A stretch of DNA of 64,000 nucleotides from Promethearchaeota archaeon (GCA_048937405.1 JBHLNF010000002.1:64001-128000), one strand, 5' to 3'; positions 17,066-49,711 are shown, counted from the stretch's first letter. The notes: generated from the letters alone by a model not told the origin. Numbers and translations are program-made.

Positions 17066-17743
17066 CTAATTGTTAACTATACTCTTTCCTTTTTCCAAAC
17101 CCAAATGCAAAGCTTTAATATTTTTATCTGGATCTCTCAACCATTCTTTAATTACTTCCTCATAATGCTCAATTTCTATAAAAGGTATCTTTTCTGTAGC
17201 ATGTGCAAATCCTAACATTATTAAGTTAACTTGTTGGTTTGAATTGAACTCATCTAAAGATAACTTAGTAGCATTCATAAAATATACTTCATGTGAGTAT
17301 CCTTTTAAAATTTCTTCAATTTTTTCTAAAGAAGGATATTTTTCGAGATCCGCAGTTATCATTATACCAGGAATTGTTCTTGAATTGAGTACAAATGCTG
17401 TTTTGTTAGAAGCAAAAATTCCTCTTCTTAACGCTTCCACAGGTTCAAAGCAAATATATAAATCCGCATCTCCATAACATATCAATGGTGAATGGAGGTT
17501 TTTTCTCTCATCTTCAAAAACTTCTTTCTGATATCTTGTATGACTGGTAATCGCTCCTTCGCGCTGTGCGAGCCCATGCATGTTTTGAATAAGCTTGAAA
17601 CAAGCTTATTATTCACTTCCAAAGGCTCGCTTTATTCCTGCTTTTTGAGCTGCGAACTCAATTAATCTCTTTAAAGTAATAACTCCCTGCCCGGCAGTTC
17701 CAGCTATTACTATATTTATTATATCTGTTTCTTTAAATTTCAC
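17066..17743 (-). CDS. iorB: Indolepyruvate:ferredoxin oxidoreductase beta subunit, interrupted by a 30-nt insertion (exons 17743-17612 and 17581-17066; 215 aa if spliced)
   Basis: GTG start at 17743 overlaps the iorA stop, with a GAGGT SD. Exon 1 is MKFKETDIINIVIAGTAGQGVITL...AFGSE; exon 2 is MHGLAQREG..SH.R...GDADL..FEPVEALR...NLIMLG. Both are in the same frame, separated by TAA TAA. Confidence 0.85.
17582..17611 (-). other. Candidate BHB-type mRNA intron (30-nt hairpin insertion) in iorB
   Basis: mRNA UAAUAAGCUUGUUUCAAGCUUAUUCAAAAC contains a perfect 10-bp stem (AAUAAGCUUG/CAAGCUUAUU); removal restores GSE-MHG; flanking exons pair (GCGAGCCU/GGGCUCGC). Confidence 0.6.
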
Positions 17744-19676
17744 GAAAAGGTACCTCTTCTGCTAATAAATTTATTATAGATTTATGTATTGCCCCATTTG
17801 GACAAATTTGGTAGCATACACCACATTTTATGCATCTATCTTGGTCAATTTGCATTTCTTCTATACCATTTGTTTCAACTCTTCTGATGGCGGGACAGCT
17901 TAAAATCCTTGCACATTCATAACACAATTGGCAACCAGCAATAAAATACGAAACATCTTGCACTCTTTTTCCTTCTCTTTCTAACGTTCTAATTTGTTCC
18001 ATTCGCCACCTATGTGCTTGAAGGCCACATTCTCTTTTAACAATGATTACCTTAAAACCATCTGTTTCTAATGCGTCTTCAATGGATTTTACAAGTTTTT
18101 TAGGATTATATGAATCTTCTACTCTTAACCAAGAAACTCCAATTGCTTTACATATATCTTCGATAGAAAATCCTTTATTTAATAAATATCTGAGAACATC
18201 ATTTTGATGTCCTGTCATTGCTGTCCATGAGTTTTCAAAAATGATTAGCAATACATTTGAATTATAACCTACTGCTTCAGCTAAAGGAGGCATACCAGTA
18301 TGGAAGAATGTAGAATCTCCTATCATAGCAATCACCTTTTGATCGGTTTTAGTAGACATCCCTATAGCAGCACTAATTCCACCGGACATACAAATCACCA
18401 AATCACTACATTGCTGTGGCGGAAAAAATGACATTACATAACACCCTATATCTCCGCTAATTATAGTGTTTTCTAGATGATTGGTAGCTTTTAATATTGC
18501 ATATAATGTAGCTCTCTCGGGACATCCAGTACAGAATGTAGGAAATCTGCTAGGTATTATATCTTTATAAGAATTAAAGTAATCAATAGCTTTATTCATC
18601 TGCTCATTAGGTGATTTATTAAAAATCTTCGCTAGACTTGTTGCTACTAATCCTGTAGAAAATTCATTGTATTTTGGAAAGTATTTTTCTCCTATAATCT
18701 CTACCTTAATCTTATGATTGTGGGCAATCTCTGCAATTTTCATTTCCAAAAATGGTTCTAATTCTTCAATTATAACTACTTTCTCAAGTTTCTCTATAAA
18801 ATTCACGATTTCTCCATAATTTAAAGGATATATCATTCCAAGCTTAAAAACTGGTACGTCTTCTAGAGCCAATTGATTCAGAGCTTCCATTGTATAACCA
18901 AATGGCATTCCACTAGTAATAATTCCAATTTTATTCTCTCCAGGAATTATTTTATTTACCCCTAGGTTTGGGATCGCTTCTCGAAGTTTTTCAATTCGCT
19001 CGTATAAGCGAATGTGATTATTGATTGCATGAGGAGGGAGAGAATTAAATTTAGGAATATTTCTAATGAATTCACCTTTAGCAATTCCTTTTACTAAAGG
19101 TTCAAGTTTTACAAAACCTCTTGAGTGTGCACTTCTAGTACTCATTCGAAAATTCATGACTAAATCATATTTCTGTGACAGTTCAAATGCGAGTTTAATC
19201 CAATCCTTGCATTCCTGTGGAGTATGAGGTTCAAAAGTGGGAAGGTGCAACATCCATGCATAAAAACGCTCATTTTGTTCTTGATGTGATCCTAAAGAAC
19301 CTGGATCAGAGCCAATTGAAACAACCATTGCTCCTGGATTTGGTCCATTTAATGCAATTACACTTAAGGCATCACTAGCAACATTTAATCCTACGTGTTT
19401 CATGGGATTTAAACTTTTACATCCTGTCCAAGCGGCGCCAGCACAAGCAGATGTCGCAACTGCTTCATTGACAGCCCAGTGATGGACTAAATATTCCCTA
19501 AATTCAGGACTATCTCTTAATGCTTGATGAAAGTATTCTCCAATATCACTAGTGGGAGTACCAGGATATTGAGAGACGTAAGATACACCTGCTTCGAGGC
19601 ATCCCCTTACGAGAGCCTCATTTCCAAGCATTAATACTCTACCTTCTTCCTTAGAAAAACGAATATCTTTAATCAT
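17733..19676 (-). CDS. iorA: Indolepyruvate:ferredoxin oxidoreductase alpha subunit
   Basis: LGNEALVRG..YPGTP, NEAVA, MKHVGLNVASD, SDPG...EQ, FCTGCP.R, GDIGCY, IGDSTFFHTG (TPP), TAMTGHQ, C-terminal ferredoxin. Confidence 0.95.
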   Translation of the reverse strand: MIKDIRFSKEEGRVLMLGNEALVRGCLEAGVSYVSQYPGTPTSDIGEYFHQALRDSPEFREYLVHHWAVNEAVATSACAGAAWTGCKSLNPMKHVGLNVASDALSVIALNGPNPGAMVVSIGSDPGSLGSHQEQNERFYAWMLHLPTFEPHTPQECKDWIKLAFELSQKYDLVMNFRMSTRSAHSRGFVKLEPLVKGIAKGEFIRNIPKFNSLPPHAINNHIRLYERIEKLREAIPNLGVNKIIPGENKIGIITSGMPFGYTMEALNQLALEDVPVFKLGMIYPLNYGEIVNFIEKLEKVVIIEELEPFLEMKIAEIAHNHKIKVEIIGEKYFPKYNEFSTGLVATSLAKIFNKSPNEQMNKAIDYFNSYKDIIPSRFPTFCTGCPERATLYAILKATNHLENTIISGDIGCYVMSFFPPQQCSDLVICMSGGISAAIGMSTKTDQKVIAMIGDSTFFHTGMPPLAEAVGYNSNVLLIIFENSWTAMTGHQNDVLRYLLNKGFSIEDICKAIGVSWLRVEDSYNPKKLVKSIEDALETDGFKVIIVKRECGLQAHRWRMEQIRTLEREGKRVQDVSYFIAGCQLCYECARILSCPAIRRVETNGIEEMQIDQDRCIKCGVCYQICPNGAIHKSIINLLAEEVPFREI

Positions 19677-49609: not shown

Positions 49610-49711
49610 TGGGAGGGGAGGGATTTGAACCCCCGACCCCTTGGTCCCAAACCAAGATTCACGCCATAGAGAAAGACTCTATAGTATCATACCAAGCTAG
49701 ACCACCCTCCC
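49610..49711 (-). tRNA. tRNA-Pro(UGG) with a 28-nt intron at non-canonical position 25/26 (intron 49658-49685)
   Basis: GGGAGGG/CCCTCCC acceptor stem, GTCT-AGCTTGGTA-TGAT D arm, CTTGG-TTTGGGA-CCAAG anticodon arm, GGGGG-TTCAAAT-CCCTC T arm; no encoded CCA; hBHBh' motif at the intron junctions. Confidence 0.93.

What the first reader, a model, noticed from the sequence alone, without database searches (positions are those of the whole stretch)
17540..17743. Candidate bulge-helix-bulge intron in a protein-coding gene (iorB) of a probable Asgard archaeon
Seen: the minus-strand mRNA reads ...AAG CGA GCC UUU GGA AGU GAA | UAAUAAGCUUGUUUCAAGCUUAUUCAAAAC | AUG CAU GGG CUC GCA.... (1) The 30-nt insert (17611-17582) holds two in-frame stops, yet both halves of iorB and all of iorA are otherwise intact. 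(2) Removing exactly these 30 nt restores the IorB signature GSE-x-HG-x-AQR. (3) The insert parses as 1 nt + a 23-nt perfect hairpin (10-bp stem, UUU loop) + 4 nt + 2 nt. This is the BHB intron geometry, with cuts after the second base of two 3-nt bulges (AA^U and AC^A). (4) In that register the exons pair with each other (GCGAGCCU/GGGCUCGC, plus UUCGC-A-GCU/AGC-GCGAA further out), using GC-rich codons unusual for this genome. Caveat: the central 4-nt helix AGUG/CAAA has only 2 Watson-Crick pairs, so the motif is relaxed. Established: archaeal EndA and RtcB splice BHB introns, and mRNA examples are rare (crenarchaeal cbf5 is the classic case). Inference: iorB expression depends on tRNA-type splicing. 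I am not aware of this being described for a metabolic gene in Asgard archaea.
Basis: partly seen in the sequence, partly recalled or inferred. Interest (0 to 1): 0.92.

Follow-up and report, generated by a model that had tools for sequence, protein, structure and literature searches.

The report
tRNA-type mini-intron in Asgard iorB
The only iorB gene of this Loki-type Asgard archaeon is broken by a 30-base insert shaped like a tRNA intron, and related species show the insert is conserved and very probably spliced out of the mRNA, which the papers I searched document only for the crenarchaeal gene cbf5.

Summary
On the minus strand, iorB is split at window 17611-17582 by 30 nt that start with UAA UAA and hold a perfect 10-bp hairpin.

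- Spread: 17 of 54 orthologous loci (14 distinct sequences, Promethearchaeota MAGs and independent assemblies) carry a 30- or 31-nt insert at the same GSE|MHG site. The other 37 are cleanly uninterrupted.
- Structure: RNAalifold, given no hint, predicts two 3-nt bulges around a 4-bp helix, with flanking helices. Cutting after the second nucleotide of each bulge reproduces the borders deduced from protein homology.
- Covariation: ten pairs show compensatory changes. One links the synonymous Ser codon AGU/AGC to A/G in the insert.
- Selection: interrupted genes have dN/dS about 0.10, the same as intact ones.
- Machinery: the genome encodes an alpha/beta EndA pair and RtcB.

This genome's own central helix has only 2 of 4 pairs. 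Exon 2 starts with AUG, so two-piece expression is not excluded.

Earlier notes of this scan report the same ~30-nt introns in other genes of this genome. I confirmed the same layout by eye in uppS and mevalonate kinase. It is a new member of the cbf5-type kind.

The parts
17733..19676 (-). iorA, indolepyruvate:ferredoxin oxidoreductase alpha subunit, intact 647-aa ORF; its end overlaps the iorB start
   Evidence: ORF list; Pfam TPP_enzyme_C, POR_N and Fer4
17612..17743 (-). iorB exon 1: GTG start, 44 codons, ends ...K R A F G S E
   Evidence: Aligns to the N-terminus of uninterrupted orthologues, including GTAGQGV. A GAGGT Shine-Dalgarno-like motif lies upstream of the GTG.
17623..17630 (-). 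5' strand of the outer exon-exon helix h (GCGAGCCU)
   Evidence: Pairs with 17575-17568. Helix kept at mean 7.5 of 8 pairs in intron-bearing orthologues versus 4.9 of 8 in intron-less ones. Compensatory C-G/U-A at alignment columns 6/59.
17618..17622 (-). Inner part of helix h, 5' strand (UUGGA): 3 of 5 positions pair with UGCAU of exon 2
   Evidence: these columns are invariant in all 14 sequences
17614..17617 (-). 5' strand of the central 4-bp helix H (AGUG, last exon-1 bases but two)
   Evidence: Pairs with the insert's CAAA here (2 of 4) and with CACU, CAUU, CGCU, CGUU or UACU in relatives. AGU/AGC covaries with A/G: U-A in 11, C-G in 3.
17611..17613 (-). Bulge 1 (A A ^ U); inferred 5' cut between 17612 and 17611
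   Evidence: 3-nt bulge in the consensus fold, columns 18-20. The cut position is inferred from canonical tRNA BHB geometry and matches the homology border.
17582..17611 (-). The 30-nt intron (UAAUAAGCUUGUUUCAAGCUUAUUCAAAAC), with in-frame UAA UAA at 17611-17606
   Evidence: Absent from 37 orthologous loci and present as 30 or 31 nt in 17.
17588..17610 (-). Intron hairpin h' (10-bp stem, UUU loop)
   Evidence: The hairpin is kept in all 14 distinct copies, with changes on both sides at 7 of 9 pairs.
17584..17587 (-). 3' strand of central helix H (CAAA)
   Evidence: Weak in this genome and in its nearest relative L026 (A.A and G.A mismatches).
17581..17583 (-). Bulge 2 (A C ^ A); inferred 3' cut between 17582 and 17581
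   Evidence: 3-nt bulge, columns 49-51 of the consensus fold; matches the homology border
17568..17580 (-). 3' strand of helix h in exon 2 (UGCAU + GGGCUCGC)
17066..17581 (-). iorB exon 2: 171 codons plus stop, starts AUG CAU GGG (M H G L A Q R E G A...)
   Evidence: Pfam PF01558, profile positions 29-173. Public annotations call this piece alone as a 171-176-aa protein.

Best explanation
The 30 nt at window 17611-17582 are an archaeal bulge-helix-bulge (BHB) intron inside the iorB coding sequence.

Proposed mechanism:
1. In the iorAB transcript, exon 1 pairs with exon 2 to form helix h.
2. The last exon-1 bases, AGUG, pair with the 3' end of the insert to form the 4-bp helix H.
3. The rest of the insert forms hairpin h'. 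This leaves two 3-nt bulges on opposite strands.
4. The alpha-beta splicing endonuclease EndA cuts after the second nucleotide of each bulge (AA^U and AC^A).
5. RtcB joins the exons. The joint GAA|AUG gives full-length IorB (215 aa) with the GSEMHGLAQR motif restored.
6. Unspliced mRNA stops at UAA UAA after residue 44.

Shown here: the insert, its conservation at one site, the covarying structure, purifying selection on both exons, and the presence of the enzymes. Inferred: cleavage, ligation, and any regulatory use.

History: the intron was probably gained once near the base of this genus-level clade and then lost precisely several times.
For: 1. Same-site inserts of 30 or 31 nt occur in 17 of 54 orthologous loci (14 distinct sequences) from independent MAGs and assemblies. 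They include a contig whose protein carries a Loki's Castle (LCGC14) name. The other 37 loci are uninterrupted. Nine of the 17 inserts are 31 nt and shift the frame.
2. RNAalifold predicts hBHBh' de novo. The 3-nt bulges are at columns 18-20 and 49-51, with a 4-bp helix between them.
3. The canonical cut sites coincide with the borders deduced from protein alignment.
4. 93.5% of cells are paired, against 19-49% when the 3' partners are slid by 1-3 columns. Ten pairs change on both sides. 0 of 500 shuffles reach the observed percentage paired or covariation score.
5. In helix H, the exon's Ser codon AGU or AGC pairs with A or G of the insert: 11 U-A, 3 C-G, no exception.
6. The exon-exon helix has 7.5 of 8 pairs in intron-bearing genes and 4.9 of 8 in intron-less ones. 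It is built from codons rare in this genome, and intron-bearing genes never use UUA for the Leu codon.
7. Median dN/dS is 0.096 for interrupted genes and 0.094 for intact ones; own versus L026 is 0.073. All exons are open.
8. iorB is single-copy here.
9. The genome has an EndA paralogue that keeps the catalytic His (best match PDB 3p1z_B), a second paralogue that lacks it, and one RtcB. Asgard EndA is reported as the broad-specificity (alpha-beta)2 type (PMC5829648).
10. Two other genes of this genome carry inserts with the same 1 + 23/24 + 4 + 2 layout at conserved motifs: uppS at DG|NRR and mevalonate kinase at FGE|HFVVYG. In both, exon 2 has no start codon at the junction, so removal at the RNA level is the only simple reading.
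Against: - No RNA evidence was obtained.
- In this genome and its nearest relative L026, the central helix has only 2 standard pairs (AGUG/CAAA). The single-sequence MFE fold prefers a slightly different local pairing.
- Helix h has two mismatches next to the bulge.
- Exon 2 begins with AUG in all 16 distinct intron-bearing loci scored and exon 1 is followed by a stop. Separate translation of two pieces is therefore formally possible.
- BHB-like motifs at ORF ends are common by chance in this AT-rich genome.
- The sequences are related, so the shuffle statistics overstate independence. A test on independent pairs was underpowered.
Confidence: 0.84

Rival explanations
1. Naturally split gene. 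IorB is made as two polypeptides, 44 aa and 171 aa, that assemble. The 30 nt are an intercistronic spacer with a conserved hairpin and are never removed.
For: Exon 1 is followed at once by stop codons, and exon 2 starts with AUG in every intron-bearing copy. Public annotations call two ORFs. This model also predicts selection on both pieces.
Against: - A spacer has no reason to keep two 3-nt bulges around a 4-bp helix made with exon 1, to covary with a synonymous Ser codon, or to keep an exon-exon helix built from rare codons.
- The insert has no Shine-Dalgarno-like motif, whereas iorB's own GTG has GAGGT upstream.
- Met at this position is also found in outgroup orthologues without the insert.
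- Same-layout inserts in uppS and mevalonate kinase are followed by exon 2 without a start codon at the junction.
- The split would cut the POR domain after its first 28 profile positions.
Confidence: 0.08
2. Dual use. Most transcripts are spliced, but unspliced mRNA also yields the C-terminal piece from the conserved AUG, so splicing tunes the amount of complete IorB.
For: AUG is invariant in intron-bearing copies, while intron-less genes of the same clade also have D, S, H or Q at that position. A regulatory role was proposed for the cbf5 intron (PMC2738675).
Against: The A and U of this AUG are themselves part of the motif: the third bulge base and the first pair of helix h. Structure alone therefore explains much of the conservation. 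There is no ribosome-binding motif and no expression data.
Confidence: 0.05
3. Decaying pseudogene, or an insertion or assembly artefact private to this genome.
For: Two in-frame stops lie in an essential-looking motif.
Against: The insert occurs in 14 distinct sequences from independent assemblies and samples. dN/dS is 0.07-0.10 with no other lesion. The hairpin is unique in the genome, so it is not a repeat element.
Confidence: 0.02
4. Translational bypassing: the ribosome hops over the 30 nt, as in phage T4 gene 60.
For: A stop codon directly follows the take-off position and a hairpin lies in the gap.
Against: No landing codon matches the take-off codon GAA at the 3' border; the inserts end in AAC, UUA, UUC, UCA, UUG and so on. 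The conserved pairing of exon 1 with the 3' end of the insert has no role in hopping.
Confidence: 0.01

Closest known systems
BHB intron in the cbf5 (pseudouridine synthase) pre-mRNA of Crenarchaeota (Watanabe 2002; Yoshinari 2006; Yokobori 2009, PMC2738675)
   Same: A short intron inside a coding sequence, with a (relaxed) BHB motif partly built from exon sequence. The host has a hetero-oligomeric broad-specificity EndA. Presence is patchy among relatives, implying gain and precise losses, and the gene needs splicing to make the protein.
   Different: A different phylum (Promethearchaeota, Asgard) and a different kind of gene: a metabolic ferredoxin oxidoreductase subunit rather than an RNA-modification enzyme. 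Splicing of cbf5 was shown experimentally; here it is inferred. By earlier scan notes and my check of uppS and mevalonate kinase, this intron is one of several ~30-nt introns in the same genome.
Non-canonical BHB introns of Asgard tRNA genes (bioRxiv 10.64898/2026.10.13.758758; the 31-nt intron of Lokiarchaeota tRNA-Sec, PMC4989117)
   Same: The same size class (about 30 nt), the same motif and presumably the same enzymes. In this genome ARAGORN finds only 7 uninterrupted tRNA genes, so the splicing machinery is heavily used.
   Different: The host RNA is an mRNA. Helix h is made by two coding segments rather than a tRNA stem, so the structure constrains codon choice.
Unconventional HAC1/XBP1 mRNA splicing in eukaryotes (IRE1 cleavage, ligation by Trl1 or RtcB)
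   Same: Spliceosome-independent removal of a short intron from an mRNA by endonuclease cuts at stem-loops, followed by tRNA-ligase joining. Only the spliced mRNA gives the full protein.
   Different: A different endonuclease (IRE1, not EndA/TSEN), a different RNA motif, and stress-regulated. The comparison is an analogy drawn from general knowledge and was not tested here.
Translational bypass of phage T4 gene 60
   Same: A short untranslated gap with a stop codon and a hairpin inside a coding sequence.
   Different: Bypass needs matching take-off and landing codons, which are absent here. The gap stays in the mRNA.

Membership tests
Archaeal BHB intron (substrate of EndA and RtcB) | [quoted passage not shown] | tested here: met
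   Unguided RNAalifold consensus of 14 orthologous copies: bulges at columns 18-20 and 49-51, helix 14-17/45-48. 91% of helix-H cells are paired.
Archaeal BHB intron (substrate of EndA and RtcB) | The same motif in this genome's own copy | tested here: inconclusive
   AGUG/CAAA gives only 2 standard pairs plus A.A and G.A. The MFE fold pairs GU with AC instead. This is a relaxed motif that would need a broad-specificity enzyme.
Archaeal BHB intron (substrate of EndA and RtcB) | Flanking helices h (exon-exon) and h' (intron hairpin) | tested here: met
   h: 11 pairs, 94.8% of cells paired. h': 9 pairs, 92.9% paired, 7 of them with changes on both sides.
Archaeal BHB intron (substrate of EndA and RtcB) | Cuts after the second nucleotide of each bulge give a correct, in-frame product | tested here: met
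   The predicted cuts equal the borders obtained independently from uninterrupted orthologues, for the 30-nt and the frame-shifting 31-nt copies alike. The cut rule itself comes from the canonical geometry of tRNA introns at position 37/38 (established knowledge).
Archaeal BHB intron (substrate of EndA and RtcB) | The host encodes the splicing endonuclease and the RtcB ligase | tested here: met
   Two PF01974 genes: one keeps the catalytic His and one has lost it, consistent with alpha plus beta subunits. One RtcB gene.
Archaeal BHB intron (substrate of EndA and RtcB) | Spliced RNA, excised or circular intron, or in vitro cleavage observed | not testable with these tools
No spliced-form contig or protein was found in the collections.
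cbf5-type pre-mRNA intron (intron inside an archaeal coding sequence) | Interrupts an otherwise intact, selected ORF; relatives have the uninterrupted gene | tested here: met
Split gene (two separately translated cistrons) | Own start codon and ribosome-binding signal for the downstream piece | tested here: inconclusive
   AUG is present in all copies. No Shine-Dalgarno-like motif is conserved in the insert. Initiation without such a motif cannot be excluded.
Programmed translational bypass (T4 gene 60 type) | Matching take-off and landing codons flanking the gap | tested here: not met
   The take-off codon is GAA; the last codons of the gap differ and never match it.

The most novel reading that the evidence does not exclude
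The iorB intron is one member of a genome-wide set of ~30-nt BHB micro-introns in housekeeping and metabolic protein genes of Loki-type Asgard archaea. Other reported members are uppS, mevalonate kinase, AMP phosphorylase and more, usually inside the most conserved motif. If so, routine mRNA splicing by the tRNA-splicing enzymes is part of normal gene expression in the closest archaeal relatives of eukaryotes. Intron-dependent codon constraints and repeated precise intron loss would follow.
Probability: 0.6. Interest if true: 0.88.

Novelty: new member of a known kind. Interest (0 to 1): 0.7.

Why it matters
**Published precedent.** In the papers I could search, splicing of a coding sequence by the archaeal tRNA-splicing machinery is documented essentially for one gene, crenarchaeal cbf5. 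None of them describes such introns in Asgard protein genes.

**What this case adds.** A single-copy metabolic gene is interrupted in its most conserved motif, and the interruption has been maintained across many Promethearchaeota species.
- It shows that "truncated" 171-176-aa IorB entries and 44-aa orphan ORFs in public annotations are mis-calls.
- It shows that RNA structure constrains codon choice in the exons.
- Together with the other cases in this genome, it makes a concrete question testable: how much protein-gene expression in Asgard archaea depends on EndA/RtcB splicing?
- That bears on ideas about intron tolerance before eukaryogenesis.

Tried and rejected
2. Spliced-form contigs: I scanned metagenome contigs for the joint TTGGAAGYGAA|ATGCAYGGNCTNGC. 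All 7 hits are relatives of intron-less genes (nearest L057, L058 or L027; 78-97% nucleotide identity), not spliced copies of intron-bearing species.
3. Spliced-form proteins: among the 120 best database proteins, no full-length one is at least 98% identical to an intron-bearing species; the best is 92.5%. The closest full-length protein, P0002, is a genuine intron-less gene with AT-rich codons.
4. Genome-wide census by structure plus ORF junction: real and decoy geometries gave equal numbers (2332 versus 2363 hits; later 522 versus 489 sites). No threshold gave clear enrichment. The scan did recover uppS at the right joint. A structure-only census is not feasible in this AT-rich genome.
5. 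A covariance model of the intron core (R1) found only its own training copies in the genome, and only 150 of about 16,000 candidates were scored.
6. The independent-pairs test of intron presence against the exon-exon helix had only 2 independent pairs on well-supported branches, too few for significance.
8. Repeat or mobile-element reading: the hairpin occurs once in the genome.
9. ARAGORN's intron calls for this genome's tRNAs looked unreliable, so I did not use them as a reference set.

Full report
**Observation**

On the minus strand the window reads ...AAG CGA GCC UUU GGA AGU GAA | UAAUAAGCUUGUUUCAAGCUUAUUCAAAAC | AUG CAU GGG CUC GCA..., with the insert at 17611-17582, exactly as reported.
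- The ORF list gives a 44-codon piece (17743-17612, GTG start) and a 171-codon piece (17581-17066), directly downstream of an intact 647-aa iorA.
- The long piece matches Pfam PF01558 (POR) only from profile position 29. iorA has the expected TPP and ferredoxin domains.
- The 121 nt around the site fold better than all 200 dinucleotide shuffles (z = -3.9). The fold includes the 10-bp hairpin and the 8-bp exon-exon helix.
- The hairpin occurs once in the 4.47-Mb, 29% GC genome, so it is not a repeat element.
- iorB has no close paralogue; the next hit is 30% identical.

**Comparison with relatives**

Searching relatives with exon 2 showed that some orthologues have open frames of about 225 codons and others of about 180. 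Reading the DNA explained this: two species of the same genus carry a 31-nt insert at exactly the GSE|MHG site, and the rest are uninterrupted and read GSEMHGLAQREGA.

A scan of named genome records placed the clade in Promethearchaeota (Loki-type Asgard) and raised the sample to 54 loci.
- 17 loci (14 distinct sequences) carry an insert of 30 or 31 nt at that site; 37 carry none.
- The inserts differ widely in sequence but share one layout: 1 nt, a 23- or 24-nt hairpin, 4 nt, 2 nt.
- The 31-nt copies shift the frame, so they cannot be tolerated insertions that are read through.
- The protein database shows the same split: about 172-aa and about 216-aa forms.
- A contig whose protein carries a Loki's Castle (LCGC14) name, seen in 7 contigs from independent samples, has a 31-nt insert. 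It is annotated as a 44-aa ORF plus a 172-aa ORF.

**Structure**

On the 64-column alignment of the 14 distinct copies, RNAalifold was given no structure. It returned 8 + 2 + 1 pairs of exon-exon helix, a 4-bp helix between the last exon-1 bases and the 3' end of the insert, the insert hairpin, and two 3-nt bulges on opposite strands (columns 18-20 and 49-51). That is the hBHBh' motif.

In canonical pre-tRNA introns at position 37/38, each bulge is cut after its second nucleotide (established knowledge). Applied here, the cuts fall after column 19 and after column 50. Those are the borders found independently from protein homology.

Counting pairs on the named structure:
- 93.5% of cells are paired, against 19-49% when the 3' partners are slid by 1-3 columns.
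- Ten pairs show changes on both sides.
- 0 of 500 shuffles reach the observed percentage paired or covariation score.
- In the central helix, the synonymous Ser codon AGU or AGC in exon 1 pairs with A or G in the insert (11 U-A, 3 C-G, no exception).
- In the exon-exon helix, GCC/GGG alternates with GUC or AUC/GGA (C-G in 5, U-A in 7).

The exon-exon helix has on average 7.5 of 8 pairs in intron-bearing genes and 4.9 of 8 in intron-less ones.
- In this genome it is built from rare codons: CGA 15%, GCC 9%, GGG 12% and CUC 5% of their families.
- Intron-bearing genes never use UUA for the Leu codon, although UUA is 51% of Leu codons genome-wide.
- The sequences are related, so these counts are not independent events. 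A test on independent pairs had too few pairs.

**Function of the interrupted gene**

All intron-bearing copies have open exons of normal length. Median pairwise dN/dS is 0.096 for intron-bearing genes and 0.094 for intron-less ones. This genome against its nearest relative L026 gives 0.073. dS is near saturation for most pairs, so the values are approximate. They still exclude a pseudogene.

On the IorB tree the intron is confined to the genus-level clade and absent from the outgroup families.
- Within the clade it is scattered: 7 changes on the best tree, and at least 2 forced by well-supported branches. The base of the clade is unresolved.
- Some intron-less genes, such as the L057/L058 group and their metagenomic relatives, still keep much of the exon-exon complementarity.
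- I read this as one gain followed by several precise losses, as proposed for cbf5 (PMC2738675). Several gains are not excluded.

**Machinery**

- The genome has two EndA-family genes and one RtcB.
- One EndA paralogue aligns along its length to 3p1z_B, a 186-aa tRNA-splicing endonuclease chain that I recall as the Aeropyrum pernix catalytic subunit. It keeps the catalytic His (GLEHS).
- The other aligns best to the Methanocaldococcus enzyme but has Ser where that His lies. This fits a structural beta subunit.
- This matches the (alpha-beta)2 broad-specificity type reported for Asgard archaea (PMC5829648; bioRxiv 10.64898/2026.10.13.758758).
- ARAGORN finds only 7 uninterrupted tRNA genes in a genome scored 100% complete. 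The one tRNA that Rfam sees in the window is 102 nt long and ARAGORN misses it. The splicing system is therefore in heavy use.

**Context in the same genome**

Earlier notes of this scan report ~30-nt BHB inserts in other genes of this genome. I treated them as leads and checked two by reading the DNA.
- uppS has a 30-nt insert (1 + 23 + 4 + 2) between DG and NRR.
- Mevalonate kinase has a 31-nt insert (1 + 24 + 4 + 2) between FGE and HFVVYG.
- In both, exon 2 has no start codon at the junction. The split-gene reading therefore fails for them, which weakens it for iorB by analogy.
- Other notes claim RNA-supported cases in other Asgard genomes. I did not verify those.

**Rivals**

- A split gene with a structured spacer remains possible, because exon 2 starts with AUG in all copies. 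It does not explain the bulge-helix-bulge geometry, the exon-insert covariation, the rare-codon exon-exon helix, or the lack of a ribosome-binding motif. The A and U of that AUG are themselves motif positions.
- Pseudogene, artefact and mobile element are contradicted.
- Translational bypass lacks a landing codon.

**Weaknesses**

- I could obtain no RNA data.
- I found no spliced-form contig or protein.
- This genome's own central helix, AGUG/CAAA, shared with L026, has only two standard pairs. Its splicing relies on a tolerant enzyme.
- BHB-like parses at ORF ends are as frequent with a decoy geometry as with the real one. Single-sequence parses of this kind should not be trusted without comparison.

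**Literature**

Searches of the held library found the cbf5 work, reviews of EndA, and a 2026 preprint on Asgard tRNA introns. They found nothing on BHB introns in Asgard protein-coding genes.

**Verdict**

This is a real, conserved BHB intron in iorB, very probably spliced by EndA and RtcB (confidence 0.84). It is a new member of the cbf5-type kind, in a new phylum and gene class, and part of what looks like a wider set in this genome.

Noticed in passing
window 49610-49711 (minus strand): Rfam finds a 102-nt tRNA here (anticodon arm CUUGG-UUUGGGA-CCAAG, so Pro/UGG-like). ARAGORN misses it. It carries about 30 extra nt with a hairpin (AUAGAG-UCUUU-CUCUAU) in the D-arm region, which looks like a non-canonical intron of the same size class.
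   Followed up: partly
own genome, all 29 contigs: ARAGORN finds only 7 uninterrupted tRNA genes in a genome scored 100% complete. Its intron-mode calls look unreliable. Most tRNA genes are presumably interrupted at non-canonical sites.
   Followed up: partly
L068:2154-2183 (minus strand; own genome C17, uppS): A 30-nt insert with the same 1 + 23 + 4 + 2 layout splits the DG|NRR motif of the only Prenyltransf/UppS gene. Exon 2 has no start codon at the junction. The central helix AUGG/ACAU has 3 of 4 pairs.
   Followed up: partly
L069:1470-1500 (plus strand; own genome C17, mevalonate kinase): A 31-nt insert (1 + 24 + 4 + 2) splits ILFGE|HFVVYG. Its loop, CUUAAUUCAAG, resembles the loops of several iorB introns (L038, L039, L053), which hints at related or convergent intron sequences.
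   Followed up: partly
L057, L058 and metagenome loci L073, L075-L077, L079: These intron-less iorB genes still keep much of the exon-exon complementarity (GAGCGA.../...GGGCUCGC) and the CGA and CUC codons, as expected after a recent precise intron loss.
   Followed up: partly
L082:141-819; P0003, P0011 and other 171-176-aa database entries: Public gene calls annotate intron-bearing iorB as a 44-aa orphan ORF plus a truncated 171-176-aa '2-oxoacid:acceptor oxidoreductase family protein'. This is a systematic mis-annotation caused by the intron.
   Followed up: yes
record titles of L026, L027, L029, L035, L044 and L059: Records with near-identical iorB genes are labelled Odinarchaeota, Hodarchaeota, Hermodarchaeota or Thorarchaeota, yet they sit inside the same genus-level iorB clade as Promethearchaeota MAGs. 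The submitters' phylum labels look inconsistent.
   Followed up: no
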